DNA from: an uncultured Chitinophagales bacterium | Lineage (GTDB): Bacteria > Bacteroidota > Ignavibacteria > UBA10030 > UBA6906 | Length of the DNA: 64,000 bases | Direction of reading: 5' to 3' | NCBI GenBank assembly: GCA_964538485.1 | Contig: CAZIHJ010000001.1 | Location: 13,899 to 77,898 of the forward strand | Notes under the pieces: generated by a model | Databases searched by the model: none | What the model was told of the DNA's origin: nothing | Seen by the model: only the letters and a program-made list of their open reading frames with translations | Program-made: the position numbers and the translations under genes | In this document: positions 50,551 through 64,000 of the stretch, in pieces | Layout: every line of letters begins with the position of its first letter | Numbering within the stretch: position 1 is the first letter of the stretch

Positions 50551-51120
50551 TTACGAAAAGGGATTTCTATTGTGCTTTGCTTGTTCCAGGAGACTGGAGC
50601 AATAGGCACAAAAGCTATGACTTTTCATATCGAGTTCTTCCACATACGACGCTGCATGCATGACGCATGAATGCTGTGAGCAGTGCACGAGGCCCAGCGA
50701 GTGTCCGAGCTCATGAGTTGCTACTTTTTGCAAACGTTCCCGGACAAGGAGTGTATTTGACGGAAGTCCGTACAGCTCATTGCGGAATCGGTGATATGAT
50801 ACAACGGCAACATTCCCGCCCAGCGGGGCCTCGCCGAACACATATGTGAGTATGGGTATATACAAGTCATACCCTGTCACTCCGACGAGTTGCACCCCAT
50901 TGTCTGCGTGCCGCGGTTTTGCGCTGTTGAGTTGAGCCAGGAAATGCAGAATAGCGGTAGAATTGTATTGCCCCCGCTGCACGTCGTAGAAACGATCAAT
51001 GGCAAAGCGGTCCGGACAAATTCTTACCGGGACGCCGAACGTTTCGTGCAACGTCGAGTCCAAACCATCAAATACACCGGGGTCAACCTCTGCCAGCGGT
51101 TGTACCTCAATTGCCGTCAT
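50551..51120 (-). CDS. Archaemetzincin-family zinc metallopeptidase
   Basis: HELGHSLGLVHC (HExxHxxGxxH) followed by Cys-rich CSQHSCVMH...CAYC, characteristic of AmzA. Confidence 0.75.
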   Translation of the reverse strand: MTAIEVQPLAEVDPGVFDGLDSTLHETFGVPVRICPDRFAIDRFYDVQRGQYNSTAILHFLAQLNSAKPRHADNGVQLVGVTGYDLYIPILTYVFGEAPLGGNVAVVSYHRFRNELYGLPSNTLLVRERLQKVATHELGHSLGLVHCSQHSCVMHAASYVEELDMKSHSFCAYCSSLLEQAKHNRNPFS

Positions 51121-52459
51121 TGCGCTTTAAACCGTACTTCTGAATCTTGTGATAGAGCGTTACCCGGTCAATGTCAAGAATTGTGGCTGCGCGGCTTACA
51201 TTCCATCCTGTTTCGGCGAGAACCTCTTTGATATACTTGTGCTCCACATCTTCAAGTGTCTTCCTGCCATTGATTCCGACTACAGATGTTCTCAATGGAA
51301 GATGGTCCTTTTCAATTGTCGATCCGACACTCACCACAACAGCACGCTCGATTGCATTCTCCAACTCACGCACATTTCCCGGCCATTCATACCCCTTTAG
51401 TTCGAGCATGGCTTCACGCGAAAACCCCTCGATCCTCTTGTTCATGGCACGCGAATATTTATCAAGGAAATGATGGGCGAGTTTTGCAATATCTCCCTTC
51501 CGGCTACGGAGGGGAGGGATATGAATTGGAAAGACATTCACACGGTAAAAGAGATCTTCCCGGAACGTCCCGTCCTTAACCGCTTGCTCAAGGTCTTTGT
51601 TCGTTGCACAAATCACCCTGAAATCCGACGTGAGCACATCGCTTCCACCGACTCGTGTGAACTGCTTTGTCTCAATGACGCGGAGCAAGTCCATTTGCGT
51701 CTTTGGGTCAATGTTGCCGATTTCATCAAGGAACAATGTCCCTCCGTCGGCCATCTCGACTTTTCCCTTCCTCCGGTACTGCGCACCTGTAAATGCCCCC
51801 TTTTCGTGGCCGAAGAGTTCACTCTCCAGCAATGTCTCAGTCATCGCGCCACAGTTTACCGTGACGAGAGAAAAGAACTTTCGTTGACTGGCATTGTGAA
51901 TGGCCCGTGCTACCAGCTCCTTGCCTGTGCCGCTCTCACCGCGAATCATGACCGTGGTGTCCGCGACGGCAACGGTCTTCACAAGTTTCAAAACGTTGAG
52001 AATTTCAGGCGATTCTCCCACAATCTCATCCCCGCTGGTGAGTTCGCTGACTGCATCTTTCAACCTCTGATTTTCCTTCAGCAGTTCCTGTTCCTTGAGG
52101 ATCTTCTCCACCAGATGATCAAGGTAATCGGGGTCAATGGGTTTGGTGATGTAGTCGTACGCACCATCCTTGAGGGATTTCACGGCGGTATCCACCGCAG
52201 CAAACGCCGTGATAATGATAACGGCGATATGTTTGTTGGTCTCCTTTACACGATGCAACAGCTCGATCCCATCCATACCAGGCATCCGGATGTCGACAAA
52301 CATGATATTCCAACGATTCAATTGCAGTTTTCTTAGTGCGGCTGCGGCATTCTCCGCCACGTCAACACGGTACCCCTCTTCGGCAAACCACTTTGATAGT
52401 GATTCCCTCACAATCAACTCATCGTCCACGACGAGAATCCCGATCTCATTGTTGTTCAT
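51107..52459 (-). CDS. Sigma-54-dependent response regulator (NtrC family)
   Basis: REC (ILVVDDE...DIRMPGMDG), GESGTGKE, GAFTGA, and a Fis-type HTH at the C-terminus. Confidence 0.9.
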   Translation of the reverse strand: MNNNEIGILVVDDELIVRESLSKWFAEEGYRVDVAENAAAALRKLQLNRWNIMFVDIRMPGMDGIELLHRVKETNKHIAVIIITAFAAVDTAVKSLKDGAYDYITKPIDPDYLDHLVEKILKEQELLKENQRLKDAVSELTSGDEIVGESPEILNVLKLVKTVAVADTTVMIRGESGTGKELVARAIHNASQRKFFSLVTVNCGAMTETLLESELFGHEKGAFTGAQYRRKGKVEMADGGTLFLDEIGNIDPKTQMDLLRVIETKQFTRVGGSDVLTSDFRVICATNKDLEQAVKDGTFREDLFYRVNVFPIHIPPLRSRKGDIAKLAHHFLDKYSRAMNKRIEGFSREAMLELKGYEWPGNVRELENAIERAVVVSVGSTIEKDHLPLRTSVVGINGRKTLEDVEHKYIKEVLAETGWNVSRAATILDIDRVTLYHKIQKYGLKRNDGN

Positions 52460-54110
52460 AATCCATTTCCTTTCTTATTCCGGAAGTGTCCGGTTGCGAT
52501 GCATCCACTTCTTGCTTTACCGGAAACGTCAAGGTGAATGTAGTTCCTGCTCCCGGCCTGGAGTCCACGAGGATGGTCCCGTGGTGGTGCTGAACGATCC
52601 CATACACGACCGCCAGACCCAGACCAACACCCTTGCCTTCAGATTTTGTTGTGAAGAATGGCTCAAAAACGTGCGCCTTCACATCGTTGCTCATTCCGCA
52701 TCCTGTATCACTTACGCGAAGGATGACCTTTTCGGGTTGCTGCTGTTGCACCTCGATCTTCAGCGTTCCACCTGAAGCTCCGGGGGAGTCCATTGCTTCG
52801 ATTGCATTCGACATCAAGGCGATAAGCGCCTGTTGCAGTTGATTGGAATCTCCATCCATTACGACATCGTCTGCACGCGACACGATCACATCGATTCCAT
52901 GCATCCGGGCGTGGTGGCTCATGAGCATAACGCATCGATCCACAACCGTGTTCAAGGAAAGAGCGCCAAATGATCCGCCCCGATGTCGCGCAAAGACGAG
53001 CAGGTTCTTCACGATATTGCCACAACGGAGCGATTCATCTGCGATGAGTTTCAGTTCATCATGCATTTGCAGAAGTTCTTTTTCCGTGAGGGTGTTTCGT
53101 TTCACCCTCTTCATCAACAGTCTTGCAAATGTCAGAATGCCTTCAAGCGGGTTATTAAGTTCATGGGCAACAGTCGCCGCAAGGTTTCCTAACGATGCCA
53201 TTTTCTCCACTGTCACCATATGCCTGTGCGCCCGCTCCAGGTCCGCAGTTTTCTCTTCAACCTTCTGCTCGAGAGTTCGGGACCATTCTGTGAGTTCTTC
53301 CCGCGCCGCGGCGAGGTCATCCGTCATCCGGTTGAACGTTACAGCGAGCGTCCCGAGCTCATCACGCGATGTTGCTTCGAGTTTCTGATCCAGTTGGCCG
53401 GACGATACCAACTGCATTCCAGTCATCAATCGTTTAACAGGCCGGTTGATGACCATCCAAATGAAGCCCCCCGAAATCAAGGAGATCAACAGCACGGCGG
53501 CAAACGAAAGGAGGAGGAGCTGGTTTCTGCTTTGTTGCAGATGGACGTCCACCTGTGCAAGTGACATTTTTACGTCCAGCACCCCGAGGATGGTTTTCGA
53601 TTCCGGGTGTGCATGACACGCGGCGTCTGAACATTGCTGTTCATTCCTGATCGGAGTGATGAGTCCGAGAACGCGATCACCGTTCGGTTTGCTGAACACA
53701 CGGGTGAGCTGAGCAGGTGTTTGGGAGACGCTATCGAGATGCGAAGACGAATGACAGCTCACACACGCCTCGGCGTTCACGTCAACCTGGGTGTGCGTTT
53801 CATCCGGAATGGATCCGAAGATCACTTCACCCTGTTTGTTGTAAATGCGGATTCCCTCGAGTCCCGGCTCACCCCCGACCGAAGTGATGATGCTGCGAAC
53901 ATCATCTTTTTGATTGAGCAACATGCTGTGGCGCGTGGAGCGGGCGATGAGATCGCTGACGCGCGTCGCACTCATGATCACATTTTCCATAATGTGAGAC
54001 TGCTGGATGTGGACCGCGGCGAAGGTCAACGCAAACAGTATGATCGTCTGTACAGAGACGATCAACAAAAAGAGTCTGAACGCGATTGTCCTTGTGAGTT
54101 TCATAACCAT
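52446..54110 (-). CDS. Sensor histidine kinase with periplasmic sensor domain containing CXXCH motif(s), HAMP, HisKA, HATPase
   Basis: TM1 (residues ~8-33), a ~155-aa periplasmic domain containing ACVSCHSS (CXXCH) and CSDAACHAH, TM2, HAMP, an H-box HELNNPLEGI, and G-boxes DTGCGM and GVGLGL. Confidence 0.85.
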   Translation of the reverse strand: MVMKLTRTIAFRLFLLIVSVQTIILFALTFAAVHIQQSHIMENVIMSATRVSDLIARSTRHSMLLNQKDDVRSIITSVGGEPGLEGIRIYNKQGEVIFGSIPDETHTQVDVNAEACVSCHSSSHLDSVSQTPAQLTRVFSKPNGDRVLGLITPIRNEQQCSDAACHAHPESKTILGVLDVKMSLAQVDVHLQQSRNQLLLLSFAAVLLISLISGGFIWMVINRPVKRLMTGMQLVSSGQLDQKLEATSRDELGTLAVTFNRMTDDLAAAREELTEWSRTLEQKVEEKTADLERAHRHMVTVEKMASLGNLAATVAHELNNPLEGILTFARLLMKRVKRNTLTEKELLQMHDELKLIADESLRCGNIVKNLLVFARHRGGSFGALSLNTVVDRCVMLMSHHARMHGIDVIVSRADDVVMDGDSNQLQQALIALMSNAIEAMDSPGASGGTLKIEVQQQQPEKVILRVSDTGCGMSNDVKAHVFEPFFTTKSEGKGVGLGLAVVYGIVQHHHGTILVDSRPGAGTTFTLTFPVKQEVDASQPDTSGIRKEMDYEQQ

Positions 54111-54281
54111 CCCTGAAAGACAAGACGGAACCTACCGTGTTGAATTTATTCACAATTCATGCCAGCAGGGCTTCACGGTGATTCCGTCCATTTGGGAACG
54201 AATATTCCTTTTCAGACCGAACAGTCTTTTGTCAACTCTGGTGACCGCCTCTTGCTTTTGTAGCAGGAATGACAAACACCG

Positions 54282-55502
54282 TCATCCCCGTGAATCTGCG
54301 GGGACAAAACCCGCTCCGGCACCCGGGAGCTCCACTGCCTCTGAAACGTGGTCAGCACCCGCCACATGGCCGTGTTCGACCTCTTTCCCGAACACATCGA
54401 AGTACCGGGCAACAAATGAGAACGCAACGAATCCAAACGCGGCGAGAGCTATGGTGATGGCAAGTTCCTGCCATGAAGGAATATATGTCCGCGTTTGCCA
54501 CTGCTCCATGCTGGTGATGGCGGTATTCAATCTGTGGGCGACGAACCCAAGCAACACAAGAACGGAGGAATAGAACAGCCCGGTTTTACTCGTCCGGACT
54601 TTCTTGAACAGGAGCAGAGCGAAAGGAACCAGCACTCCCAATACGACTTCGCCAATGAACATCATGCTCTGGTACGTTGGTTCAAACACGTATTGTAATG
54701 CATCCCGATTCACCAGATCCTGAATTCGTACAGTGAAGTACAGAGCAAGCACGACTACCACGACTTTCGCCAACTGGGAGAGCAATGGCAGTTCTATTTC
54801 TCTCCCGAAGGCTCGCGCTGAAAGGAAGGATTCGAAGATCGTCATGCACAACCCTGCCGCAACGCACGAGATGATGAAGAGAAACGGAATGACGTTGGAA
54901 TACCAGAGCGGGTGCATTCTGCCTGGGATGATAAGGAACAGTGACCCGAGGGAAGACTGGTGGAGAGTAGAAAGAAGCACACCCGCAACGACCAATGGAA
55001 TAGTGATTGCCTTGACGACCTTCAACGCTCGCTTGAGCCGGAAACGCTCAAGAATCACGGGGCTAAACTCCAACGCGAGCACCGTGGTGTACAGCATCAC
55101 GCACCAGGCAACTTCGAACATCACCGATCTTGGGTTCCAATAAATGAGTGCGTGCCAGATGGCCCACGGACGCCCGAGATCAACCATCAGGCCTGCAATG
55201 ACAAGCAGATATCCGAGAAACGCTGTAAGAATGGTTGGTCGGAGAATTGGTCTGAACCGCTCAATGTTGAAGATATACACTGCCGCCGCGATCGTGAATC
55301 CGCCTGCTGCGAGTCCGACCCCAACCAGAATATCGAACCCGATCCATAATCCCCACGGAAATGTATCTGCGAGATTAGTTGTGGCCCCGAGGCCGAGAGT
55401 GAAGCGCTGGATCGTCGCCACAAGTCCGGCCACCATCAACGCCACGGCAACTACTTTCCAAAAAGTTATCTTAAGAAGTCCAGGAAATTTCATGATCATC
55501 AC
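54282..55502 (-). CDS. NrfD/PsrC-family polytopic membrane quinol-interacting subunit
   Basis: Roughly 10 TM helices with the NrfD-like pattern (GLWIGFDILVGVGLAAGG...). Start codon overlaps the stop of the upstream NrfC-like gene. Confidence 0.8.
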   Translation of the reverse strand: MMIMKFPGLLKITFWKVVAVALMVAGLVATIQRFTLGLGATTNLADTFPWGLWIGFDILVGVGLAAGGFTIAAAVYIFNIERFRPILRPTILTAFLGYLLVIAGLMVDLGRPWAIWHALIYWNPRSVMFEVAWCVMLYTTVLALEFSPVILERFRLKRALKVVKAITIPLVVAGVLLSTLHQSSLGSLFLIIPGRMHPLWYSNVIPFLFIISCVAAGLCMTIFESFLSARAFGREIELPLLSQLAKVVVVVLALYFTVRIQDLVNRDALQYVFEPTYQSMMFIGEVVLGVLVPFALLLFKKVRTSKTGLFYSSVLVLLGFVAHRLNTAITSMEQWQTRTYIPSWQELAITIALAAFGFVAFSFVARYFDVFGKEVEHGHVAGADHVSEAVELPGAGAGFVPADSRG

Positions 55503-56281
55503 CTTGTGTTAGTATTTGCTTGATCGTCTTTTTTGCGCAACTCCTCGGCTTCGAACCTCGCTACTTCTGTTCGACGTGCGGTGATCCAATGAATGCCGAA
55601 GAGTACCACGCTCGCTGCAACCGTGTACTTCGGAATTTGTGAGAGCACGCGCCACGAGAGATTGGGAATCGGCTCATTTGGAATGTTCATCGGGAAACCG
55701 AGCTTCTCAAACGGTATGGCAGAGATGTACAGGACGGAAGTTCCCCCGGCCTCTTTCAGTCCATAGATGTAGTTCACATACTGTCCGGGATTCTCGTCGA
55801 TGCGTTTTCTTGCTTCCGTGATCATCTCATCCCGATCACCGAAGGTTGTCGCTCCGAACTGGCACGCTTCAGCGCATGCTGTTGGCTGACCTGCAGTCAC
55901 GCGCTCATAGCACATCTTGCACTTCTGGACTCTTGGCGCAAGACTGCTCCATTCATAGCGTGGGATCTCAAATGGACATGCCTGCATACAGTACCGGCAT
56001 CCGATGCACTTCGACTCATCGTAGACAACGGCACCGGTTTCTGTCTTAGTGAACGCTCCCACGAGACAGGCAGAAACACACGTCGGCTCGTTACAGTGCA
56101 TACACAGTTTGCGCACATGGACTTCGTCATTCTGGAAGCTTTTCAACACGGTGTATCGGGTTGAGGAGAGCTCCTGCCCATCCTCCTGGGGAAGACCGTT
56201 TGTTTCTGCGCAGGCACGTGTGCATTCGCCACACCCCACACACTTGGTGATATCGATAAGCAACGCTTTTGACGTACTCAT
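55499..56281 (-). CDS. NrfC/PsrB/HybA-like 4x[4Fe-4S] ferredoxin subunit with C-terminal TM anchor
   Basis: CVGCGECTRAC, CMHCNEPTCVSAC, CIGCRYCMQACP and CKMC...C clusters, plus a C-terminal hydrophobic helix. Confidence 0.85.
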   Translation of the reverse strand: MSTSKALLIDITKCVGCGECTRACAETNGLPQEDGQELSSTRYTVLKSFQNDEVHVRKLCMHCNEPTCVSACLVGAFTKTETGAVVYDESKCIGCRYCMQACPFEIPRYEWSSLAPRVQKCKMCYERVTAGQPTACAEACQFGATTFGDRDEMITEARKRIDENPGQYVNYIYGLKEAGGTSVLYISAIPFEKLGFPMNIPNEPIPNLSWRVLSQIPKYTVAASVVLFGIHWITARRTEVARFEAEELRKKDDQANTNTR

Positions 56282-56991
56282 TGGCCGATCTCCTTGTGAT
56301 CAGACTCTTGTGCTTTGCGTAAGGTCGTGAACGTGTGACCGAAATCCTCCCAGATGCGATCGTCAAGCTGCTGGAGAACGCCGTCGACCGGCAACCCGCC
56401 CTCCTGTAAGGTCACCGGCTGTCCCTCCATCTCATTCATCGCAATAAAGTCCCGCACCAATACCACTTGTTCCCGCAACCATTCCATCGGTTGGCGGATA
56501 ATGTATTGTCGTGATGCTGCAATATCATCTACCCTTGATTTCAAACGGACAAGCCATCCCTTTCCATACGGATCAGTCATTATGAGCGAAGGGTCTCTCA
56601 GAACATCAGGGTTCGGCTCGACAACTCCACCGGCAACAGGTGTTGCCAGCCGGAATGATCGGCCGTTCGCACCCATTGAAAAATCAGCAAAAGAGGGTCT
56701 CGTCGTCTCTCCAGCGGGTGGGACGGCGATTGTTTCAACTACTCCCATCAGCCGGCTGAGAAACCCGTCAATCCCCAGCGTAATTGTCCCATCGTGGTTG
56801 GTCCGCATCCACATATGGTTGGTAGCGAGTTCGACATCCTGCGGGAGGTGACTCGGGAGTTGGAAAGGCCGTGGCCGCGATGTCGCCTGGAATGGCTTTC
56901 GCACCGCGACAGGCCGGCTACGTTTTTTTTGAACAACGTGGTCGATTGCCAGGAAAGTAATCAGTGTGCACAGCACGAGTAAGACAGTCAT
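56278..56991 (-). CDS. Membrane-anchored glycine-cleavage H-protein-like (GcvH-fold) protein lacking the lipoyl-lysine
   Basis: N-terminal TM helix, then NHMWMRTNHDGTITLGIDGFLSRLMGVVETIAVP...PYGKGWLVRLK. This parallels GcvH (KEHEWL...GITEHAQ...VFVDLP...ESVKA...SEPYAGGWIFKIK) but no Lys sits at the lipoylation position. GGAGG RBS. Confidence 0.6.
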   Translation of the reverse strand: MTVLLVLCTLITFLAIDHVVQKKRSRPVAVRKPFQATSRPRPFQLPSHLPQDVELATNHMWMRTNHDGTITLGIDGFLSRLMGVVETIAVPPAGETTRPSFADFSMGANGRSFRLATPVAGGVVEPNPDVLRDPSLIMTDPYGKGWLVRLKSRVDDIAASRQYIIRQPMEWLREQVVLVRDFIAMNEMEGQPVTLQEGGLPVDGVLQQLDDRIWEDFGHTFTTLRKAQESDHKEIGQ

Positions 56992-58052: not shown

Positions 58053-58191
58053 CCCCTTATTTCTCACAACTGAGAACCTCCACCCATGATTGAGATGCAA
58101 TTTCAGCGTTTTCATTGCTTTCTACCTCGGCATGTGCTTTGAATCTATGAAGGGTGTTGATTTGACAATACAACGGTTGATCTATCAGGTG

Positions 58192-60330
58192 ATGAAAACC
58201 TTTACACTCATACTGACACTTGTCTTCTCTTCGAATGTTGGACCGGATCTTCTGGCCCAGGACAACAATCAGTGTTTGACCTGTCATGGCGAGCATGCCC
58301 TTTCTATGGAGAAGAGGGGAAAGTCAATTTCCCTTTTTGTGAATCCGCCCGCATTCCAGAAGTCAGCACACGGTGATCTCGAATGCGTTGGATGTCACGA
58401 AGGACTTTCTGGCGACGAGATTCCGCATGCAAAGAAGATCAATGCGGTTGACTGCATGAGCTGCCACGACAGCCAGGGGCTTACCCACTACAAGGAGAGC
58501 GTCCACGCACTGAAGAAGGCGAATGGATCTACTGCGGCTACCTGTGCGGACTGTCATTCAAAGCACGCGATTCAGAGAATCTCTGAAAAGGATCCACATG
58601 CAAGGCAAGAATTTGGTATTGGGGTCTGCGCGACGTGTCACGGTGATCTGAAAAACAAGTTCATGGCTTCGGACCATGGTAAGGCCTTCAAGGCCGGCAC
58701 AAAAGGGGCTCCGGCTTGCATAGACTGTCATGGCGAACACGGGGTCCAGTCCGCGATGAATGACTCTTCGACCACAAACCACAAGCAAGTTGCGGCAATG
58801 TGCTTGAATTGTCATCTGGACAATCCCGACGTACGCGCGAAAGTCGGGCCGTCTGCCGGGTTTGTGTCGAGCTACGAGCAAAGCGTTCATGGCCAGGCTG
58901 TGCAACATGGGAATGATATGGCTGCAACGTGTACTGACTGCCACAGCAGTCATGAGATGCGAAAGGGTTCCGATCCCGTATCAAAGGTTGCAAAGAAAAA
59001 TATCGCATCCACATGCGGACAGTGTCACGGCGATGTTGAAGAGCAGTACAAGTACAGTGTCCACGGCAAAGCGGTTGCTGCCGGTATTGGGGCTTCAGCG
59101 ACGTGCACAGATTGCCATGGCGAGCACAACATTCTTTCTCCAAAAGACGACCGTTCACCCGTCTCTGCCAGGAACGTCTCTGTGCAGGTTTGCTCTCCCT
59201 GTCACGCATCGGTCAAACTCAACGAGAAGTACGGGCTCGCCAGTGACCGGTTCCAGAGCTTTGCCGATAGCTATCATGGGCTGGCAGGACGGGCGGGCGA
59301 TGTTGAGGTTGCCAATTGTGCCAGTTGCCATGGTGTTCACGACATCAAGCCTTCTTCGGATTCCACTTCAAGGATCCATCCAAAGAATCTTGTCAACACG
59401 TGTGGTTCATGTCATCCCGGGGCGAACGAGAATTTTGCCCAGGGTTCTGTGCACGTGATTGCGACGTCCGGCCAGGACAGGGTGCTGTATTTCGTTTCCA
59501 CCTCATACATTATCCTGATTATTGTGACGATTGGAGGGATGTTCTTCCACAATCTTCTCGACTTCATCAGGAAATCAAAAAGAAAACTCATGGAACGGCG
59601 CGGGTTGATCCATCACCGACCTGCGGAAAACCGGCTGTACCTGAGGATGTCATTAGGCGAGAGGATTCAGCACGGTACATTGCTCGTCAGTTTTACAACG
59701 CTTGTTCTTACAGGGTTTGCACTCAGGTTTCCGGATGCCTGGTGGGTAGCACCTGTGCGCGATATCAGTCCGATGATGTTTGAACTCCGAAGCCTCAGTC
59801 ACAGGATTGCCGGTGTTGTAATGGTACTCGTGAGTCTCTATCATGTCTACTATGTTCTTATTGTCCCGCGAGGCAAGCAACTCCTGCGCGATATGCTTCC
59901 CGAACGGAACGATCTTACGGATGTGATTGGCGTTTTGAAATACAATCTTGGGATGGCTGCCGTGAAACCGGGGTTCAAGCGCTTCAGCTACATTGAGAAA
60001 GCGGAGTATTGGGCGCTCATCTGGGGGACGTTCGTGATGGCCGCAACCGGATTTATCCTCTGGTTTGACAACACGTTTATAGGCCTCTTCACCAAGCTTG
60101 GATGGGACGTTGCACGGACCATTCATTACTACGAGGCCTGGCTAGCAACACTCGCAATCATCGTCTGGCATTTCTACTTCGTGATTTTCAACCCGGACAC
60201 GTATCCCCTCAACCTCGCTTTCTGGAAGGGAACGCTCACTGAGGAAGAAATGCGGGAAGAACATCCCCTGGAGTTGGATGAATTGAAGCGAGAGGAAGAA
60301 TCGGAAAAAGAAATAGGCGGGGAGAGTTAG
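58192..60330 (+). CDS. Multiheme cytochrome c (13 CXXCH) fused to C-terminal di-heme cytochrome b (FdnI/PhsC/HybB-like) membrane domain
   Basis: Trimmed to the ATG at 58192 (signal peptide MKTFTLILTLVFSSNVGPDLLAQ). Thirteen CXXCH motifs occur between residues 30 and 440. The C-terminal ~270 aa forms 4-5 TM helices with conserved His pairs (IQHGTLL...; SHRIAGVVMVLVSLYHVYYV; WHFYFVIFNP), typical of b-type cytochrome subunits of formate dehydrogenase or hydrogenase. Confidence 0.8.
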   Translation: MKTFTLILTLVFSSNVGPDLLAQDNNQCLTCHGEHALSMEKRGKSISLFVNPPAFQKSAHGDLECVGCHEGLSGDEIPHAKKINAVDCMSCHDSQGLTHYKESVHALKKANGSTAATCADCHSKHAIQRISEKDPHARQEFGIGVCATCHGDLKNKFMASDHGKAFKAGTKGAPACIDCHGEHGVQSAMNDSSTTNHKQVAAMCLNCHLDNPDVRAKVGPSAGFVSSYEQSVHGQAVQHGNDMAATCTDCHSSHEMRKGSDPVSKVAKKNIASTCGQCHGDVEEQYKYSVHGKAVAAGIGASATCTDCHGEHNILSPKDDRSPVSARNVSVQVCSPCHASVKLNEKYGLASDRFQSFADSYHGLAGRAGDVEVANCASCHGVHDIKPSSDSTSRIHPKNLVNTCGSCHPGANENFAQGSVHVIATSGQDRVLYFVSTSYIILIIVTIGGMFFHNLLDFIRKSKRKLMERRGLIHHRPAENRLYLRMSLGERIQHGTLLVSFTTLVLTGFALRFPDAWWVAPVRDISPMMFELRSLSHRIAGVVMVLVSLYHVYYVLIVPRGKQLLRDMLPERNDLTDVIGVLKYNLGMAAVKPGFKRFSYIEKAEYWALIWGTFVMAATGFILWFDNTFIGLFTKLGWDVARTIHYYEAWLATLAIIVWHFYFVIFNPDTYPLNLAFWKGTLTEEEMREEHPLELDELKREEESEKEIGGES

Positions 60331-60573: not shown

Positions 60574-61116
60574 ATGAGATCAACCATGCAGTTTATTGCA
60601 GTCATACTTGTTACTCTCGTCGTGGTAAGCGTAAGTGCTGCGGACAATAAGTTCACGGGCGCCAAGATGTGCGCCGCGTGCCACAAGGCAGGTAAAGGCG
60701 GAACTGCTTTTGCCGTTTGGGAGAAGAGCGCCCACGCACACGCATTTCAAACATTGCTCAGTGATGCCTCAAAGAAAATTGCAAAAGAAAAGGGTTTAAA
60801 GACGGCACCCAGTGAAAGTCCGGAGTGTTTGAAGTGTCATGTCACCGGCGGCGGTGCTGCGAAGAATATTGAGGCCTCGTTCAAGAAGGAAGAAGGCATC
60901 ACATGCGAAGCATGCCACGGGGCGGCATCCGGCTACAAGATGCTTCACAGCAAGGGTGATCTTGCAAAGTCAAAAGCGGCAGGAATGGATCCCGGGCAGA
61001 AAGATGCGAAATTCTGCGTTACCTGTCACAACGCTGAGAGTCCCTCACACAAATCAGCTTTCAAACTCGACGAGATGTGGTCGAAGATAGAACACCCACT
61101 GCCGGCAAAGAAATGA
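60574..61116 (+). CDS. Periplasmic tetraheme cytochrome c (c3-like)
   Basis: Signal peptide, then CAACH, CLKCH, CEACH and CVTCH in 180 aa. Confidence 0.8.
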   Translation: MRSTMQFIAVILVTLVVVSVSAADNKFTGAKMCAACHKAGKGGTAFAVWEKSAHAHAFQTLLSDASKKIAKEKGLKTAPSESPECLKCHVTGGGAAKNIEASFKKEEGITCEACHGAASGYKMLHSKGDLAKSKAAGMDPGQKDAKFCVTCHNAESPSHKSAFKLDEMWSKIEHPLPAKK

Positions 61117-61158: not shown

Positions 61159-61173
61159 ATTTGTTTCATCGGT

Positions 61174-62691
61174 GTGTTTACCACGGAGTCCCACTTGAAG
61201 CGCCGATTTCCGGATGTCATCTACAATCCCATCAGCATAGTAGGCGCAGCACTCGCAAGCGTCAGCTTTGCAACCATTCTCTTTCTAACGCTGGTCGATA
61301 TTATGCAGGAGCACCCCCCCGCATACATCGGCATTATCTCCTATGTTGTCCTTCCCATACCGTTGATCATCGGTCTGGCGCTCATCCCGATTGGCATTCT
61401 GCGCGAGAAATCCCGTTTACGCAAGGGATTGCCCGCCAGCCGGATGTCATTTAGTATTGATCTGAACATTCCAAGGCAACGGACTGCGGTGACGCTCTTC
61501 GCAGGTGCAACCGTTATTTTCCTGTTATTCACGGCGTACGGAAGTTACAGGACATTTGAATGGACGGAATCAGTCGAGTTCTGCGGTGAAACTTGTCACT
61601 CAGTGATGGAACCGGAATTCACTGCATACTTGAATTCTCCTCATGCGCGGGTAAAGTGTGTGGATTGTCATGTCGGATCCGGAGCGGATTGGTACCTCAA
61701 GTCGAAGCTCAGTGGTGCGTACCAGGTGTATGCTGTTCTGGTGGATAATTATCCCCGTCCGATCCCGACGCCGATAGCGAACTTGCGTCCGGCGCAGGAA
61801 ACATGTGAACAGTGTCACTGGCCGTCTCACTTTGCAGGTGAGAAGAAGTATGTCAACACGTACTTCAAGTCCGACGAACAGAATACGCGTTGGACGATTG
61901 CCCTTTTGATGAAGACCGGTGGAGGAAGTGCCGATCGTACTCCGACGAGCGGTATTCACTGGCATATGAATATCGCCAATGAGATTACCTACGTCGCGAC
62001 GGACAGTCAGCGTCAGACGATTCCATGGGTGAAGGTTAGAAATCAATCAACGGGTGAGGAGACCGAATATCTCTCGTCGGATGCAACGGAGTCGATGGAC
62101 CATTTCAGGCAACTCCCATCCAACAGAGTAGACTGTATTGATTGTCACAACAGGCCGTCGCACATCTATCGTCCACCTGTCCGCATTGTGGATCAGAGCC
62201 TTGCACTCGGCAGAATCAGCACGGATCTTCCCAGTATTCGGGCAGCGTCCATTCAGGCGTTGACGGAACCCTACACGTCAACGAAAGCAGCGATGGACAG
62301 TATCCCGTTGTTGATGGCCGGATTTTACGCGGATCAGTATCCCGCTGTTGCGAATGAGAAGAAGGAGTTGATCAAGGCTGCTTCGGAAGAGCTTAAAACA
62401 CAATTCAGCCGGAACTTTTTCCCCGGGATGAAGGTCAACTGGAAGGCATATCCCAACAACATCGGACATATGACAGACATCGGCTGTTTTCGATGCCACG
62501 ATGGGAAGCACGTCAGCGCCACGGGCAAGACGATCTCAAAGGATTGCAATAGCTGTCATACGATTCTCTATCAGGGCAGCGATCCTGTTCCGACAACTAT
62601 GAGTATTGCTGGATTGGAATTCCAACACCCTGAAGACATTGGTGAGATCTGGAAGGAAATGAACTGCAAGGATTGTCACACCGGGCAGTGA
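61174..62691 (+). CDS. Membrane-anchored multiheme cytochrome c (7 CXXCH; NapC/NrfH-superfamily-like N-terminus with 2-3 TM helices)
   Basis: The open frame begins after a TGA at 61141; the first plausible start is GTG at 61174. Hydrophobic helices (ISIVGAALASVSFATILFLTLV; IGIISYVVLPIPLIIGLALIPIGIL; VTLFAGATVIFLLF) precede CGETCH, CVDCH, CEQCH, CIDCH, CFRCH, CNSCH and CKDCH. Confidence 0.75.
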   Translation: MFTTESHLKRRFPDVIYNPISIVGAALASVSFATILFLTLVDIMQEHPPAYIGIISYVVLPIPLIIGLALIPIGILREKSRLRKGLPASRMSFSIDLNIPRQRTAVTLFAGATVIFLLFTAYGSYRTFEWTESVEFCGETCHSVMEPEFTAYLNSPHARVKCVDCHVGSGADWYLKSKLSGAYQVYAVLVDNYPRPIPTPIANLRPAQETCEQCHWPSHFAGEKKYVNTYFKSDEQNTRWTIALLMKTGGGSADRTPTSGIHWHMNIANEITYVATDSQRQTIPWVKVRNQSTGEETEYLSSDATESMDHFRQLPSNRVDCIDCHNRPSHIYRPPVRIVDQSLALGRISTDLPSIRAASIQALTEPYTSTKAAMDSIPLLMAGFYADQYPAVANEKKELIKAASEELKTQFSRNFFPGMKVNWKAYPNNIGHMTDIGCFRCHDGKHVSATGKTISKDCNSCHTILYQGSDPVPTTMSIAGLEFQHPEDIGEIWKEMNCKDCHTGQ

Positions 62692-62885
62692 ATTAAGGAA
62701 TCTCCTGATTGCAGGTTTGATAAAAGGCAGGTGTTTCCCTTATGATTGTTGAGAATGAGCCGCATGACTGTCCGGGGAGTGTTGATTTAAGATGGATTTG
62801 GCTGATTCTCCTGGCGTTTCGTTGGCACACGGCTTGATAATATCGAGACAGCATTTTGATTATCCATCGAGAGCGAATCAAACCT

Positions 62886-64000
62886 ATGAACGCTGATACT
62901 GCATTCTCGAAGAGTTTCAAACACATTCTTCTTCTCCTTGCCCTTTCTTTTGGCTGTTCATCGCTTTCAATCGGGCAATTGGTCAACGGTCGTTTTATTA
63001 CATCGGTGTATTCCTGGAAGCAGTATGAAACCGTGGACGTGTCGAAGACATTTACTCGGGGATTTCAGTCCGTCCTCCTTGACGTTGCGCAGAACGATTT
63101 CAGCCTTCATGGCCACTTCCAGGGAGCGGTGATGCTGCAAAGCAAGCTCGATGAGCTTCCGGACTACCGGCTGTATTACGGTTATGCACAATGGAGGAAC
63201 ATCGCTGATGTCGCCGATCTCTCCTTTGGCAGGGTACCGTTCTTTGCCGGTGTGGGTTCGGGAACGATAGACGGCGCGCTGGCAAGATTCCGTGTTGCGG
63301 AGAATGCATGGCGGTTGACGTTCTACGGAGGCGCGAATACTCCTGCGGATATGACGGTGAAAAAATGGGGCCCTCTCAAGAACAACTTTACCATCGGCGG
63401 GCAGATTCTGACGACGGCTGTTGAAGACTGGCGCTTCGGTCTCAGTTACATGAACCGACAGCGTGAGAGTCCGGGCTACTGGACGCTTCGGTCCGACTCG
63501 CTGTTTACTCCATTCGCCCTCTACATTGATCCGAATCAGGCGAAGGAACAGTATGCAAGCGCCGATATCTCCTATTCCCTGAACAACATTAACCTTCGTG
63601 CTCTCTGCGATTACAACATCGACTATGAGAAGACCCAACGAGCACTTGTGAGTGCCCGCTACTATCCATCAGATGACTGGATTGTCAGTGCAGAGTACAT
63701 CCACCGGGCCCCCCGATTGATGTCGAATTCCTTCTTTGCGGTCTTCAATGCGCACACGATTGATGAGATAGAAGGTGGTGCGGATTACACGGTGTTACCT
63801 TCCGTTCGCGTGTTTGCCCGCGGAGCGTACGTGCAATATTCTGGCGATAATAGTTTTCGCTACACGGTGGGTGTAGCCAACGACTACGCTTCCGCCAGTT
63901 ACCGGGGAAGCACGGGATATGCCGGGGAACTACACTCCGTCTCATTGCAGGGATCGTATCCTCTGTGCGATCGGATGTTTATTCCGACTGCCGGTCTTTC
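62886..64000 (+). CDS. Probable outer-membrane beta-barrel protein, partial (continues past window end)
   Basis: Not in the ORF track because it has no stop within the window. ATG at 62886 gives MNADTAFSKSFKHILLLLALSFGCSSLSIGQ (signal peptide), followed by 340 aa of alternating-hydrophobicity, Tyr/Gly/Arg-rich sequence (YGYAQWRN..., TFYGGAN..., FGLSYMNRQ..., ADISYSLNN...) typical of a porin-like barrel. The opposite-strand ORF 62967..63638 is a shadow of this frame. Confidence 0.5.
   Translation, partial: MNADTAFSKSFKHILLLLALSFGCSSLSIGQLVNGRFITSVYSWKQYETVDVSKTFTRGFQSVLLDVAQNDFSLHGHFQGAVMLQSKLDELPDYRLYYGYAQWRNIADVADLSFGRVPFFAGVGSGTIDGALARFRVAENAWRLTFYGGANTPADMTVKKWGPLKNNFTIGGQILTTAVEDWRFGLSYMNRQRESPGYWTLRSDSLFTPFALYIDPNQAKEQYASADISYSLNNINLRALCDYNIDYEKTQRALVSARYYPSDDWIVSAEYIHRAPRLMSNSFFAVFNAHTIDEIEGGADYTVLPSVRVFARGAYVQYSGDNSFRYTVGVANDYASASYRGSTGYAGELHSVSLQGSYPLCDRMFIPTAGL

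What the first reader, a model, noticed from the sequence alone, without database searches (positions are those of the whole stretch)
50551..64000. Regulated membrane/periplasmic electron-transfer locus of undescribed composition
This ~13-kb locus contains the following, in order: (1) an archaemetzincin gene; (2) an NtrC-type sigma54 activator paired with a histidine kinase whose periplasmic sensor carries CXXCH motif(s); (3) a four-gene minus-strand operon of two membrane-anchored GcvH-like proteins, an NrfC-like gene and an NrfD-like gene; (4) a divergent plus-strand set of a 13-heme cytochrome c fused to a di-heme cytochrome b, a tetraheme cytochrome c, a seven-heme membrane-anchored cytochrome and a probable OM beta-barrel. 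Taken together it looks like a complete conduit from the quinone pool (NrfCD-like and cytochrome b) through periplasmic multihemes to an outer-membrane barrel, that is, a porin-cytochrome-like extracellular electron-transfer or respiratory module. It is under dedicated redox-sensing, sigma54-dependent control. I do not know this combination, especially the lipoyl-less GcvH-like subunits, as a described complex. The organism also exports a nine-heme cytochrome through T9SS (6484-8601), which supports an extracellular electron-transfer lifestyle.
Basis: partly seen in the sequence, partly recalled or inferred. Interest (0 to 1): 0.85.

Follow-up and report, generated by a model that had tools for sequence, protein, structure and literature searches.

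The report
Two adjacent respiratory modules, one undescribed
The 13-kb stretch is two independent gene sets that are neighbours only in this lineage: a known Geobacter-type pathway for exporting electrons, and a widespread, apparently undescribed cassette joining a quinone-linked membrane module, two lipoate-less H-protein-like proteins, a haem-based sensor kinase, a sigma-54 activator and an archaemetzincin protease.

Summary
The reading as one conduit under one regulator does not hold.

**Cassette A (50551-57720, minus strand).** It contains GcvH-like A and B, a HybA/HmcB-like FeS protein, a HybB/HmcC-like NrfD protein, a sensor kinase with a dihaem-c motif, a sigma-54 response regulator and an archaemetzincin.
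- The cassette recurs, in the same order or rearranged, in Ignavibacteriota/Bacteroidota, Acidobacteriota, Planctomycetota and deltaproteobacterial MAGs.
- Only 1 of 79 genome loci has the cytochromes beside it.
- Sigma-54-type promoters are conserved in front of GcvH-A and the kinase.
- Starting from the protease, 48 of 49 metagenome loci have the activator directly upstream.
- I found no description of this cassette. Its function is inferred, not shown.

**Cluster B (58061-64000+, plus strand).** It contains a CbcL-like protein (13 haems c plus cytochrome b), a c554-like tetrahaem, an ImcH-like protein and a 24-strand outer-membrane barrel.
- Relatives continue with multihaem and lipoprotein cytochromes, which makes this a Geobacter-type porin-cytochrome pathway, already reported in Ignavibacteria.
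- In relatives it travels with a different regulator pair, the orthologue of window genes 8801-11884.

**Unexplained.** The FeS subunit has no export signal.

The parts
50551..51120 (-). Cassette A: archaemetzincin (Zn protease, 189 aa). Its start overlaps the stop of the sigma-54 regulator by 14 nt.
   Evidence: NCBIfam archmetzin scores 148.9 bits against a cut-off of 145, and Pfam Peptidase_M54 gives E=1e-22. The HExxHxxGxxH motif and four Cys are invariant in 15 orthologues. The gene lies directly downstream of the regulator in 48 of 49 metagenome loci.
51107..52459 (-). Cassette A: NtrC-type sigma-54 activator RR1 (REC + AAA+ with GAFTGA + HTH_8)
   Evidence: Pfam. It is co-located with the cassette across phyla.
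52446..54110 (-). Cassette A: sensor histidine kinase with a periplasmic loop (residues 32-198) carrying CVSCH (116) and CSDAACH (160), then HAMP-HisKA-HATPase
   Evidence: Both haem-binding motifs, 43-44 residues apart, are present in 48 of 50 orthologues across four phyla. There are weak matches to the Geobacter haem-c PAS sensors 3b42/3b47 and to PF21563.
54149..54164 (-). Sigma-54-type promoter P(HK): TGGCATGAATTGTGAA, 54 nt upstream of the kinase ATG
   Evidence: All 25 class-1 loci inspected show TGGCA(C/T)G-N4-NTG(A/C) at the same position in otherwise unalignable spacers. TGGCA-N7-TG occurs upstream of the kinase in 29 of 45 loci, against 0-5 of 41-53 upstream of each internal gene.
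54282..55502 (-). Cassette A: NrfD-family membrane subunit (406 aa, 10 TM helices, N-in/C-in)
   Evidence: Pfam NrfD E=4e-27. The best NCBIfam matches, HybB (322 bits) and HmcC (317 bits), are both below cut-off. The K/R bias is 17 to 7.
55499..56281 (-). Cassette A: NrfC-family four-cluster FeS subunit (260 aa) with a C-terminal TM helix, a conserved RRTEVARFEAEE tail and no signal peptide
   Evidence: HmcB 250 bits, HybA 202 bits, both below cut-off. The N-termini of 35 or more orthologues start at the first Cys cluster.
56278..56991 (-). Cassette A: GcvH-like B (237 aa). An N-terminal TM helix is followed by KKRSR, then a GcvH-fold domain without the lipoyl-lysine and a C-terminal extension.
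   Evidence: Pfam GCV_H E=2e-14. It is syntenic with GcvH-like A and NrfCD.
57004..57657 (-). Cassette A: GcvH-like A (217 aa). It has an N-terminal TM helix, a GcvH fold and a helical C-terminal extension with the TPALMxQxGG and DxCSDEEW motifs.
57705..57720 (-). Sigma-54-type promoter P(gcvH-A): TGGCAAACTTCTTGGG, 63 nt upstream of ATG 57657
   Evidence: A TGGCA element sits at about -60 to -75 in all 33 class-1 loci inspected. TGGCA-N7-TG occurs in 29 of 51 loci, against 0-5 of 41-53 for each internal gene. Canonical TGGCA(T/C)-N5-TTGC lies upstream of the GcvH-like gene in about 10 metagenome loci.
58061..58076 (.). Cluster B: palindrome TTCTCACAACTGAGAA, a candidate activator-binding site about 60 nt upstream of P(cbcL)
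   Evidence: This is the only match in the window, with 0.1 expected. The same TTCTC-N-GAGAA element is present upstream of the CbcL-like gene in L005 and L164.
58128..58143 (+). Cluster B: sigma-54-type promoter P(cbcL): CGGCATGTGCTTTGAA, about 50 nt before ATG 58192
   Evidence: An equivalent element lies upstream of the CbcL-like gene in L005, L164 and L165.
58192..60330 (+). Cluster B: CbcL-like inner-membrane cytochrome (712 aa) with a signal peptide, 13 CXXCH and a dihaem cytochrome b (Ni_hydr_CYTB) domain with 5 predicted TM helices
   Evidence: It is 66% identical over its full length to the L165 orthologue.
60574..61116 (+). Cluster B: periplasmic tetrahaem cytochrome (c554 family, 180 aa)
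   Evidence: Pfam Cytochrome_C554 E=9e-18 and 4 CXXCH. It occupies the same position in L164 and L165.
61174..62691 (+). Cluster B: ImcH-like inner-membrane cytochrome (505 aa) with 3 TM helices, a NapC/NirT-type region and 7 haem motifs (CX3CH at 137 plus 6 CXXCH)
   Evidence: The architecture matches G. sulfurreducens ImcH as described in PMC6295460 and bioRxiv 10.1101/2023.05.03.539133.
62823..62838 (+). Cluster B: sigma-54-type promoter P(barrel): TGGCACACGGCTTGAT, 48 nt before ATG 62886
   Evidence: It is conserved as TGGCATGCAGATTGC in L005 within a diverged spacer.
62886..64000 (+). Cluster B: outer-membrane beta-barrel (porin-like), cut by the window end. The full protein is 438 aa.

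Best explanation
The region holds two separable sigma-54-controlled respiratory modules that became neighbours by a rearrangement in this lineage.

**Cluster B (58061-64000 and beyond)** is a Geobacter-type extracellular electron-transfer pathway.
- Two menaquinol oxidases (CbcL-like and ImcH-like) pass electrons to a periplasmic tetrahaem cytochrome.
- From there electrons reach an outer-membrane porin-cytochrome complex: the barrel here, and in relatives the multihaem cytochromes encoded after it.
- The cluster is transcribed from sigma-54 promoters. Its probable activator is the PAS-kinase/activator pair at 8801-11884.

**Cassette A (50551-57720)** is a self-contained unit that I could not find described anywhere.
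- Its core is an NrfCD-type module, a haem-less quinone-interacting membrane subunit plus a four-cluster FeS subunit. This module exchanges electrons between the menaquinone pool and periplasmic redox carriers.
- Two membrane-tethered, cytoplasm-facing GcvH-fold proteins cannot be lipoylated. I infer that they are accessory or regulatory subunits on the cytoplasmic face.
- The cassette is switched on from two sigma-54 promoters. The likely route is its own periplasmic dihaem-c sensor kinase and activator, which would read periplasmic redox state.
- An archaemetzincin is co-translated with the activator and forms part of the circuit.

**Shown:** gene content, folds, topology predictions, synteny, promoter conservation.

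**Inferred:** the direction of electron flow, the physical association of the GcvH-like proteins with NrfD, which activator fires which promoter, and the protease's substrate.
For: **Separation of the two sets**
- tblastn with all 11 window proteins against 79 genome loci anchored on GcvH-like A found the 7-gene cassette in the same order in about 25 Ignavibacteriota/Bacteroidota loci.
- The cassette is rearranged in Planctomycetota (L059, L065), Acidobacteriota (L071, L075-L082) and a deltaproteobacterial MAG (L078). The cytochromes are present only in L005.
- Gene tables of L004, of the DNA-less JGI place returned for P0024, and of L001 agree.
- The reciprocal scan from the archaemetzincin gave these counts: activator adjacent in 48 of 49 loci, kinase in 37 of 37, NrfD in 18 of 22, and a GcvH-like gene in 19 of 22. 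No cytochrome cluster was found.
- Barrel homologues in L164 and L165 sit in a conserved cluster: PAS-HK / RR / Usp / REC-like / CbcL-like / multihaem / c554 / ImcH-like / barrel / multihaems / CcmF. No cassette A genes are present.
- The L165 activator is 63% identical to window RR2 and 43% to RR1.
- The flanks of the L165 cluster correspond to window 8801-13020 and 15125-16480. The matches are Usp 43%, REC-like 30% and Cys/Met enzyme 77%, which indicates a translocation.

**Promoters**
- GGCAC-N5-TTG occurs 8 times in the window against 2.5 expected.
- Conserved elements precede the CbcL-like and barrel genes and GcvH-A and the kinase.
- A distinct palindrome sits upstream of P(cbcL).

**Cassette biology**
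- The GcvH fold has no lipoyl-Lys.
- The GcvH-like domain is cytoplasmic. K/R residues follow its TM helix. In Desulfobaccales and Desulfatiglandales it is fused to FeS/MvhD/HdrA-type proteins, and in five class-2 loci it is fused to a receiver domain.
- Relatives supply the periplasmic electron-input partner. One type has a 13-haem cytochrome with a Tat-signal NrfC. Another has a QrcB-like Tat protein with a pentahaem cytochrome.
- The dihaem motif in the sensor loop is conserved.

**Literature**
- CbcL and ImcH homologues and pcc clusters are already reported in Ignavibacteriae.
- Sigma-54 control of an inner-membrane cytochrome has a precedent in BccR/CbcBA.
Against: - In the window type of the cassette the FeS subunit has no signal peptide, and no Tat-signal partner is encoded nearby. 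NrfD topology is nevertheless canonical. A functional periplasm-facing NrfCD module is therefore not demonstrated.
- No periplasmic cytochrome is encoded inside the window's cassette.
- The -12 elements of the cassette promoters are non-canonical: TTGG and GTGA instead of TTGC.
- Nothing here shows that RR1 binds near those promoters, that the GcvH-like proteins contact NrfD, or what the protease cleaves.
- The cassette and the cytochrome cluster share one 534-nt divergent control region in this genome and in L005, so cross-regulation or functional cooperation in this lineage cannot be excluded.
- Homology of the ImcH-like and CbcL-like proteins to the Geobacter proteins rests on architecture and published surveys, not on a direct alignment made here.
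Confidence: 0.62

Rival explanations
1. One reading: all the genes form one integrated conduit. NrfCD and the b/c cytochromes take electrons from quinol, periplasmic multihaems carry them to the barrel, and the adjacent dihaem kinase with its activator controls the whole set.
For: - The two sets are divergently arranged around one 534-nt spacer, and the arrangement is kept in the nearest relative L005.
- All four transcription units carry sigma-54-type promoters.
- The window's NrfCD lacks a cytochrome partner of its own, while class-2 and class-3 relatives have one. The neighbouring c554-like protein could fill that role.
Against: - The adjacency occurs in 1 of 79 genome loci and in none of the 80 metagenome loci.
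- The cytochrome cluster is complete without the cassette in L164 and L165, where it carries its own regulator pair. The orthologue of that pair sits 45 kb away in this window.
- The candidate activator site upstream of P(cbcL) is shared with L164, where RR1 is absent.
Confidence: 0.12
2. Cassette A is mainly a signalling device rather than a respiratory enzyme. NrfCD would poise the kinase's periplasmic haems against the menaquinone pool, or report periplasmic redox state to it. The GcvH-fold proteins would be membrane-tethered signalling adaptors or outputs, and the archaemetzincin would reset the circuit by proteolysis.
For: - The kinase, activator and protease are the most tightly linked genes.
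- In five class-2 loci a TM-receiver-GcvH-like fusion replaces the sigma-54 activator and protease next to the same kind of kinase. In those loci the GcvH-like domain is therefore the output of a phosphorelay.
- In L024 a GcvH-like gene is followed directly by kinase, activator and protease, with no NrfCD within 10 kb.
- The window's cassette has no catalytic or cytochrome partner for NrfCD.
Against: - Class-2 and class-3 relatives encode full Nhc-like or Qrc-like electron-input subunits, namely a 13-haem cytochrome or a QrcB-like protein with a pentahaem cytochrome. That looks like a working oxidoreductase, not a sensor.
- No NrfCD module is known to act as a sensor (review PMC8076601).
- Some genomes carry the four structural genes without the regulator trio nearby (L001, L028, L040).
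Confidence: 0.18
3. The window-type NrfC stays in the cytoplasm. The complex would then be a new cytoplasm-facing quinone module that passes electrons between menaquinone and the cytoplasmic GcvH-like proteins or their partners.
For: - 35 or more orthologues have no signal peptide.
- The GcvH-like domains are cytoplasmic, and elsewhere they are fused to HdrA/MvhD-type electron-transfer proteins.
- Acidobacterial GcvH-like proteins carry Cys-rich modules that could bind metal clusters.
Against: - NrfD topology is identical to that in class-2 loci, whose NrfC has a Tat signal. Window-type NrfC and NrfD are 39-47% identical to those proteins, so a change of docking face is unlikely.
- The window's GcvH-like proteins have no lipoyl-Lys and no obvious redox cofactor site.
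- NrfD has no haems that could carry electrons across the membrane.
Confidence: 0.08

Closest known systems
NhcABCD / HmcABCDEF / QrcABCD cytochrome c:menaquinone oxidoreductases of sulfate reducers, and HybA-HybB of E. coli hydrogenase 2 (NrfCD-type redox modules; review PMC8076601)
   Same: - A haem-less 10-TM NrfD-family subunit is paired with a four-cluster FeS subunit that has a C-terminal anchor.
- The best NCBIfam matches are HybB/HmcC and HmcB/HybA.
- Relatives of the cassette add a 13-haem cytochrome (Nhc/Hmc-like), or a QrcB-like protein with a pentahaem cytochrome (Qrc-like).
   Different: - All matches score below the family cut-offs.
- The window's operon has no hydrogenase and no cytochrome.
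- The FeS subunit lacks a signal peptide.
- There are two membrane-anchored GcvH-fold subunits, a dihaem sensor kinase, a sigma-54 activator and an archaemetzincin. None of these appears in the 14 NrfD-containing complexes the review lists.
Glycine cleavage system H protein (GcvH) and GcvH-like proteins (such as S. pyogenes GcvH-L, PDB 5a35)
   Different: - The lipoyl-lysine column is not conserved and is Asn here.
- The proteins have an N-terminal TM anchor and a roughly 70-aa C-terminal extension.
- The NCBIfam score is below cut-off (78.5 against 117).
- The genomic partners are NrfCD and a two-component system, not GcvPT.
Geobacter sulfurreducens EET pathway: ImcH, CbcL and the Pcc porin-cytochrome complexes (PMC6295460, PMC4245776, bioRxiv 10.1101/2023.05.03.539133)
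   Same: - The ImcH-like protein has 3 TM helices in about the first 125 residues, 7 haem motifs and about 505 aa. ImcH has 3 TM helices, 7 haems and about 507 aa.
- The CbcL-like protein has a multihaem N-terminal half and a HydC/FdnI-type cytochrome b C-terminal half.
- A porin-like barrel is followed in relatives by periplasmic and lipoprotein multihaem cytochromes.
- Homologues have already been catalogued in Ignavibacteriae and Bacteroidetes.
   Different: - There are 13 rather than 9 haems c in the CbcL-like protein.
- Both quinol oxidases and the Pcc genes lie in one cluster.
- The first ImcH-like motif is CX3CH.
- The cluster uses sigma-54 promoters, whereas imcH and cbcL are constitutively expressed in Geobacter.
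- No direct sequence comparison with the Geobacter proteins was possible here.
BccR / CbcBA of G. sulfurreducens (sigma-54 response regulator controlling an inner-membrane quinone oxidoreductase; bioRxiv 10.1101/2021.04.15.440034)
   Same: An NtrC-type activator is encoded next to, and divergent from or in line with, a sigma-54-dependent operon for a membrane quinone oxidoreductase.
   Different: - The target here is an NrfCD module with GcvH-like proteins, not a bc-type cytochrome.
- The regulator is paired with a dihaem-c periplasmic sensor kinase and an archaemetzincin.
Periplasmic haem-c PAS sensor domains of Geobacter chemoreceptors GSU0582/GSU0935 (PDB 3b42, 3b47; Pfam PF21563)
   Same: A periplasmic sensor loop between two TM helices carries a c-type haem-binding motif. 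There is local similarity around that motif: LSLVLPFPNEQRCQ--SCH against LGLITPIRNEQQCSDAACH.
   Different: - The similarity is weak (E=0.26 and 1.4; Pfam 18.8 bits against a cut-off of 27).
- There are two motifs rather than one, and the matching one is CX4CH.
- The output is a histidine kinase, not a chemoreceptor.

Membership tests
NrfCD/PsrBC dimeric redox module | Haem-less integral membrane subunit of the NrfD family (PF03916), 8-10 TM helices | tested here: met
   PF03916 E=4e-27. There are 10 hydrophobic segments with a K/R bias of 17 inside to 7 outside.
NrfCD/PsrBC dimeric redox module | Partner FeS protein with four cubane-type Cys groups (NrfC/PsrB/HybA family) | tested here: met
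   Fer4_11 E=2e-23. Four Cys groups can be read directly in the sequence: CVGCGEC..C, CMHCNEPTC..C, CIGCRYC..C and CKMC..C..C.
NrfCD/PsrBC dimeric redox module | FeS subunit exported to the periplasmic face, by its own Tat signal or by that of a co-encoded partner | tested here: not met
   Neither the window protein nor 35 or more orthologues have a signal peptide, and the operon encodes no Tat-signal protein. The feature is met in class-2 relatives (own RRxFLK signal) and class-3 relatives (QrcB-like TRRDLL signal).
Hydrogenase-2 HybA/HybB | NCBIfam equivalog scores above cut-off, and adjacent hydrogenase structural genes | tested here: not met
   HybB scores 322 bits against 450, and HybA 202 against 263. 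No hydrogenase genes occur in any of the loci examined.
Hmc/Nhc complexes | HmcB/HmcC-type pair together with a periplasmic 9- or 16-haem cytochrome in the operon | tested here: not met
   HmcC scores 317 bits against 550, and HmcB 250 against 420. The window's operon has no cytochrome. Class-2 relatives do encode a 13-haem cytochrome.
Glycine cleavage H protein | Lipoyl-lysine in the E-S-V-K hairpin | tested here: not met
   The profile alignment to 1onl and 1dxm puts a variable residue at the Lys position. That residue is Asn in the window's protein A and Gly in protein B.
Glycine cleavage H protein | H-protein fold | tested here: met
Archaemetzincin (peptidase M54) | HEXXHXXGXXH zinc site plus a Cys4 motif, and a family HMM score above cut-off | tested here: met
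   NCBIfam scores 148.9 bits against a cut-off of 145. H136, E137, H140, H146 and four Cys are invariant in 15 orthologues.
NtrC-type bacterial enhancer-binding protein with sigma-54 promoters as targets | REC + AAA+ (GAFTGA) + HTH_8 domains, and -24/-12 promoters in cis | tested here: met
   The domains are, and GAFTGA is visible in the sequence. Conserved TGGCA-N7-TG elements lie upstream of GcvH-A and the kinase. Binding and activation were not tested.
ImcH | Three N-terminal TM helices, a NapC/NirT/NrfH-like region and seven c-haem motifs in about 500 aa | tested here: met
   The TM helices are at 15-44, 58-76 and 105-123. Cytochrom_NNT gives E=2e-12, and there are 7 motifs.
ImcH | Sequence homology to G. 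sulfurreducens GSU3259 | not testable with these tools
   The Geobacter sequence could not be fetched. Published surveys list ImcH homologues in Ignavibacteriae and Bacteroidetes.
CbcL/MtoC/MtrH | N-terminal multihaem c domain fused to a HydC/FdnI-type dihaem cytochrome b domain | tested here: met
   There are 13 CXXCH motifs. Ni_hydr_CYTB gives E=5e-15 and the formate-DH gamma model matches. The haem number differs from the 9 in Geobacter. I did not check the b-haem His ligands individually.
Porin-cytochrome (Pcc) gene cluster | Gene for a porin-like outer-membrane beta-barrel | tested here: met
Porin-cytochrome (Pcc) gene cluster | Adjacent genes for a periplasmic multihaem cytochrome and an outer-surface (lipoprotein) multihaem cytochrome | not testable with these tools
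   The window ends inside the barrel gene. In the nearest relative L005 the barrel is followed by a 353-aa multihaem protein and two multihaem proteins with lipoprotein-type signals. L164 and L165 show the same pattern.
Haem-c PAS periplasmic sensor (PF21563; PDB 3b42/3b47) | Significant sequence match to the family and covalent haem | tested here: inconclusive
   The Pfam score is 18.8 bits against a cut-off of 27, and PDB matches have E=0.26 and 1.4. The motifs are conserved in 48 of 50 orthologues. Haem attachment cannot be tested here.

The most novel reading that the evidence does not exclude
Cassette A is a previously unrecognised, phylogenetically broad respiratory control system. In it a periplasmic dihaem-c sensor kinase governs an NrfCD quinone module in three ways. 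The first is transcriptional, through a sigma-54 activator. The second is through membrane-tethered lipoyl-less GcvH-fold proteins that act as adaptors or outputs on the cytoplasmic face of NrfD; in some lineages these proteins are fused directly to a receiver domain. The third is through a dedicated archaemetzincin. If correct, this gives archaemetzincins a first concrete cellular context and gives the H-protein fold a new non-lipoyl role.
Probability: 0.35. Interest if true: 0.75.

Novelty: new variant of a known kind. Interest (0 to 1): 0.62.

Why it matters
- **NrfCD modules.** They are central to anaerobic energy conservation, and the catalogue of complexes built on them was reviewed recently. 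That review lists none with GcvH-fold subunits or a dedicated haem sensor. The cassette occurs in soil, peat, sediment and groundwater lineages (Ignavibacteriota, Acidobacteriota, Planctomycetota, Desulfobacterota), so it may be a common but overlooked part of anaerobic electron transport or its control.
- **Archaemetzincins.** As far as I know they have no established physiological function in any organism. A near-obligatory, translationally coupled link to a sigma-54 two-component system is a directly testable lead.
- **Annotation.** The result gives a rule for MAG-based metabolic inference. A CbcL/ImcH/Pcc cluster and a neighbouring NrfCD cassette should not be merged into one pathway on adjacency alone.
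- **Promoter detection.** Sigma-54 promoters in these phyla escape a strict TGGCAC-N5-TTGC search.

Tried and rejected
- **Strict sigma-54 consensus searches.** TGGCAC-N5-TTGCW with up to 2 mismatches, and GG-N10-GC, found nothing upstream of GcvH-A or the kinase. I first concluded that the cassette lacked sigma-54 promoters. Inspecting orthologous spacers overturned this. The -12 elements are non-canonical.
- **Source contig.** The look-up of encoding contigs for the exact window protein P0001 found no record, so the source contig beyond 64000 could not be read. The full-length barrel came from the protein collection instead.
- **Literature.** These term combinations returned nothing relevant: NrfD+GcvH, NrfD+NrfC+'glycine cleavage', archaemetzincin+'histidine kinase', and GcvH+MvhD+HdrA.
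- **Generic promoter and terminator scan.** Counts were not above the shuffled controls, so I did not use it. A hairpin at the NrfD stop (54282-54307) is only suggestive.
- **Inverted NrfD.** I considered that the window-type NrfD might be inverted, which would give a cytoplasm-facing module. I rejected this because the K/R bias is the same as in relatives whose NrfC has a Tat signal.
- **Kinase sensor loop against the PDB.** The sequence search gave only sub-threshold matches.
- **TGCAAC...GTTGCA element.** I did not establish an activator-binding site shared by P(gcvH-A) and P(HK). A TGCAAC...GTTGCA-like element seen by eye upstream of GcvH-A in several loci did not match as an exact pattern in the window.

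Full report
**1. What is in the sequence.**

Minus strand:
- An archaemetzincin at 50551-51120. NCBIfam scores 148.9 bits against a cut-off of 145.
- An NtrC-type sigma-54 activator, RR1, at 51107-52459.
- A histidine kinase at 52446-54110. Its 167-residue periplasmic loop carries CVSCH and CSDAACH.
- An NrfD-family membrane protein at 54282-55502.
- A four-cluster NrfC-family FeS protein at 55499-56281.
- Two GcvH-like proteins at 56278-56991 and 57004-57657.

Gene spacing suggests two transcription units. GcvH-A to NrfD has a 12-nt gap and two 4-nt overlaps. Kinase, activator and protease have two 14-nt overlaps. A 171-nt spacer separates the two units.

Plus strand:
- A 13-haem c plus dihaem b fusion. 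Its real start is most probably ATG 58192, because the 712-aa product aligns end to end at 66% identity with a 711-aa orthologue.
- A c554-family tetrahaem at 60574-61116.
- A 505-aa protein at 61174-62691 with three TM helices, a NapC/NirT-type region and seven haem motifs. The first motif is CX3CH.
- An ORF from 62886 that runs off the window.

**2. The two sets are not one system.**

I anchored a scan of one genome per GTDB species on GcvH-like A. It found 177 relatives, of which 79 loci were fetched. I then searched those loci with all eleven window proteins.
- About 25 Ignavibacteriota/Bacteroidota loci have the seven minus-strand genes in the same order and orientation.
- In Planctomycetota (L059, L065), Acidobacteriota (L071, L075-L082) and a deltaproteobacterial MAG (L078) the same genes are co-located in other orders. 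The archaemetzincin is among them.
- The four cytochrome and barrel genes were found in only one locus, L005. This is the nearest relative, at 90% identity.
- Gene tables from the public annotation agree. In two loci at roughly 66-68% identity to GcvH-like A, the genes upstream of GcvH-A are DinB-, cupin- and EamA-type. In the CHB1/CHB3 genomes the four structural genes stand alone.

The reciprocal test started from the archaemetzincin in metagenomes. More than 592 relatives were found and 80 loci fetched.
- The activator is directly upstream in 48 of 49 loci that have room for it.
- The kinase is present in 37 of 37.
- NrfD is present in 18 of 22 loci with 6.5 kb or more of upstream sequence, and a GcvH-like gene in 19 of those 22.
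- No cytochrome cluster was found.

From the other side, barrel homologues at 53% and 42% identity (L164, L165) lie in a conserved cluster. Its order is PAS-kinase, sigma-54 activator, Usp, REC-like protein, CbcL-like, a 670-aa multihaem, a 280-aa protein, c554-like, ImcH-like, barrel, two or three multihaems, CcmF. No GcvH, NrfCD or archaemetzincin genes are present.

**3. Each set has its own regulator, and this genome shows a rearrangement.**
- The activator beside the cytochrome cluster in L165 is 63% identical to the window's second activator (10526-11884) and 43% identical to RR1.
- The genes after it match window 12072-12578 (Usp, 43%) and 12559-13020 (30%).
- The gene beyond the far end of the L165 cluster matches window 15125-16480 at 77%.

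The flanks of the cytochrome cluster in L165 are therefore nearly contiguous in this window, at 8.8-16.5 kb. The cluster itself sits at 58-64 kb beside cassette A. This points to a translocation in the lineage of this genome and L005.

**4. Sigma-54 control.**

GGCAC-N5-TTG occurs 8 times in the window against 2.5 expected, and six copies sit 40-115 nt upstream of ORFs.

Cluster B:
- Sigma-54-type elements precede the CbcL-like gene in the window (58128-58143), L005, L164 and L165.
- They also precede the barrel gene in the window (62823-62838) and L005.
- A palindrome, TTCTCACAACTGAGAA (58061-58076), is unique in the window, with 0.1 expected. Recognisable versions recur upstream of the CbcL-like gene in L005 and L164.

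Cassette A:
- My first, strict searches were negative.
- Lining up orthologous spacers then showed a TGGCA element at a fixed distance upstream of GcvH-A in all 33 class-1 loci inspected. The same was true upstream of the kinase in all 25 loci inspected.
- TGGCA-N7-TG is present in 29 of 51 and 29 of 45 loci for these two genes. Upstream of each of the five internal genes it is present in only 0-5 of 41-53 loci.
- In another clade the GcvH-like gene carries a fully canonical TGGCAT-N5-TTGC.

Both units of cassette A are therefore sigma-54-dependent. RR1, inherited in cis, is the obvious activator, which implies autoregulation. That last step is inference.

**5. Anatomy of cassette A.**

The GcvH-like proteins:
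- The lipoyl-lysine column is variable, so the protein cannot carry lipoate.
- Each protein has one N-terminal TM helix followed by K/R residues, which predicts a cytoplasmic domain.

Distant relatives support a cytoplasmic location. The same domain is the C-terminal module of large FeS/MvhD/molybdopterin-binding or HdrA-like fusions in Desulfobaccales and Desulfatiglandales. Elsewhere it follows Cys-rich modules. In five class-2 loci it follows a TM helix and a receiver domain, in loci where no sigma-54 activator or protease was detected.

NrfD and NrfC:
- NrfD has 10 TM helices with a K/R bias of about 17 to 7. This is the canonical N-in orientation.
- The bias is identical in three cassette types:
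  - Class 1 (window type): signal-less NrfC and no cytochrome.
  - Class 2: Tat-signal NrfC plus a 13-haem cytochrome.
  - Class 3 (Acidobacteriota): a Tat-signal QrcB-like protein, a pentahaem cytochrome and a signal-less NrfC.
- The features common to all three types are the NrfD-type quinone module, the GcvH-like protein(s) and the dihaem kinase. The periplasmic electron-input part varies.

The kinase's two haem motifs, 43-44 residues apart, are conserved in 48 of 50 orthologues. The second motif shows weak local similarity to the Geobacter haem-c PAS sensors.

**6. Most likely mechanism, and what remains open.**

I read cassette A as a sensor-controlled menaquinone:periplasmic-carrier oxidoreductase of the Nhc/Hmc/Qrc kind. 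It is switched on from sigma-54 promoters by a periplasmic haem redox sensor. The GcvH-fold proteins would act as cytoplasmic accessory or regulatory subunits, and the archaemetzincin as part of the regulatory circuit.

The open points:
- The window-type FeS subunit has no export signal and no Tat partner in the operon.
- The window's operon lacks a cytochrome.
- No contact between the GcvH-like proteins and NrfD has been shown.
- The protease's substrate is unknown.

The main rival is a chiefly signalling role for the whole cassette. The receiver-GcvH fusions and the tightness of the kinase/activator/protease trio keep this rival alive.

**7. Cluster B.**

The architectures match published descriptions of ImcH (3 TM helices, 7 haems, about 507 aa) and CbcL (multihaem c plus HydC/FdnI-type b). 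Both are already catalogued in Ignavibacteriae and Bacteroidetes.

The barrel, modelled from the full-length source protein, is a 24-strand outer-membrane barrel. In L005 it is followed by a periplasmic multihaem protein and two multihaem proteins with lipoprotein-type signals. This is the pcc pattern reported for Ignavibacterium album.

Cluster B is a new member of a known kind. Two details deserve mention: 13 haems in the CbcL-like protein, and sigma-54 promoters. In Geobacter imcH and cbcL are constitutive, and only cbcBA is sigma-54/BccR-dependent.

**8. Verdict.**

The extracellular electron-transfer reading of the plus-strand genes and the novelty of the GcvH-like/NrfCD combination both stand. 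The single conduit and the assignment of the adjacent regulator to the cytochromes do not.

The interesting object is the seven-gene cassette. It is widespread, internally coherent, sigma-54-controlled, and absent from the literature I could search.

Noticed in passing
window 6484-8738 (-) and 8801-11884 (+): A nine-haem cytochrome has a C-terminal T9SS sorting-domain match just under Pfam's cut-off (25.9 against 27 bits). It is preceded by a sigma-54-type promoter (CGGCACGCACGTTGCT, 8723-8738). It is divergent from a PAS-kinase/sigma-54 activator pair, which is the orthologue of the pair that flanks the CbcL/ImcH/Pcc cluster in L164 and L165.
   Followed up: partly
window 12024-12039, 15020-15035, 28272-28287, 48444-48459 (+): Further sigma-54-type promoters lie 40-115 nt upstream of four genes: a Usp gene (12072), a Cys/Met-metabolism PLP enzyme (15125), a HemN-like gene (28315) and a 405-aa polyferredoxin-type membrane protein (48559, Fer4_5). 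This suggests a large sigma-54 regulon for anaerobic metabolism in this organism.
   Followed up: partly
L008 7527-8690; also L011, L020, L030, L044: A conserved 387-394-aa protein has an N-terminal TM helix, a response-regulator receiver domain and a GcvH-like domain with the same C-terminal extension. It is encoded after the dihaem kinase and before a second Tat-signal NrfC gene.
   Followed up: partly
L057 7586-10522, L064 7523-10513, L066 7559-11461 (Desulfobaccales/Desulfatiglandales MAGs): The lipoyl-less GcvH-like domain forms the C-terminus of 980-1300-aa cytoplasmic redox fusions. One type is Fer4 + FlpD/MvhD + Molydop_binding. The other is Fer2 + Fer4 + Pyr_redox_2 + Fer4.
   Followed up: no
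L075 4549-5394 and 9659-10483; L045, L066, L085, L099, L121, L124, L154: Recurrent Cys-rich modules sit in front of the GcvH-like domain. They are CxWMxAGVx5C-x5-6-CxxC, two repeats of CPxLxE...C...C..Y..C, and TM + C...CRH...C..F.C..C. They may be metal- or cluster-binding sites.
   Followed up: no
window 55499-56281 and orthologues: The NrfC-like FeS protein of the window-type cassette has lost the Tat signal that its closest known relatives (HybA, HmcB) and its class-2 paralogues carry. It keeps a conserved charged tail, RRTEVARFEAEE, after the C-terminal TM helix.
   Followed up: yes
window 13056-15000: Only about 2 kb of short ORFs lie at the position where L164 and L165 carry the roughly 12-kb cytochrome/Pcc/CcmF cluster. 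This is the apparent excision or translocation scar.
   Followed up: partly
L054/L053/L045 about 17955-18003 and L038 17253: In Ignavibacterium-like loci a canonical sigma-54 promoter lies directly downstream of the archaemetzincin gene. It precedes a ferredoxin plus 2-oxoacid:ferredoxin oxidoreductase operon, and in L038 a HemN-like gene.
   Followed up: no
window 2492-6199 (-): A 1235-aa protein has a CBM_4_9 domain, several Ig-type domains and a weak T9SS sorting-domain match. It lies next to the nine-haem cytochrome.
   Followed up: no
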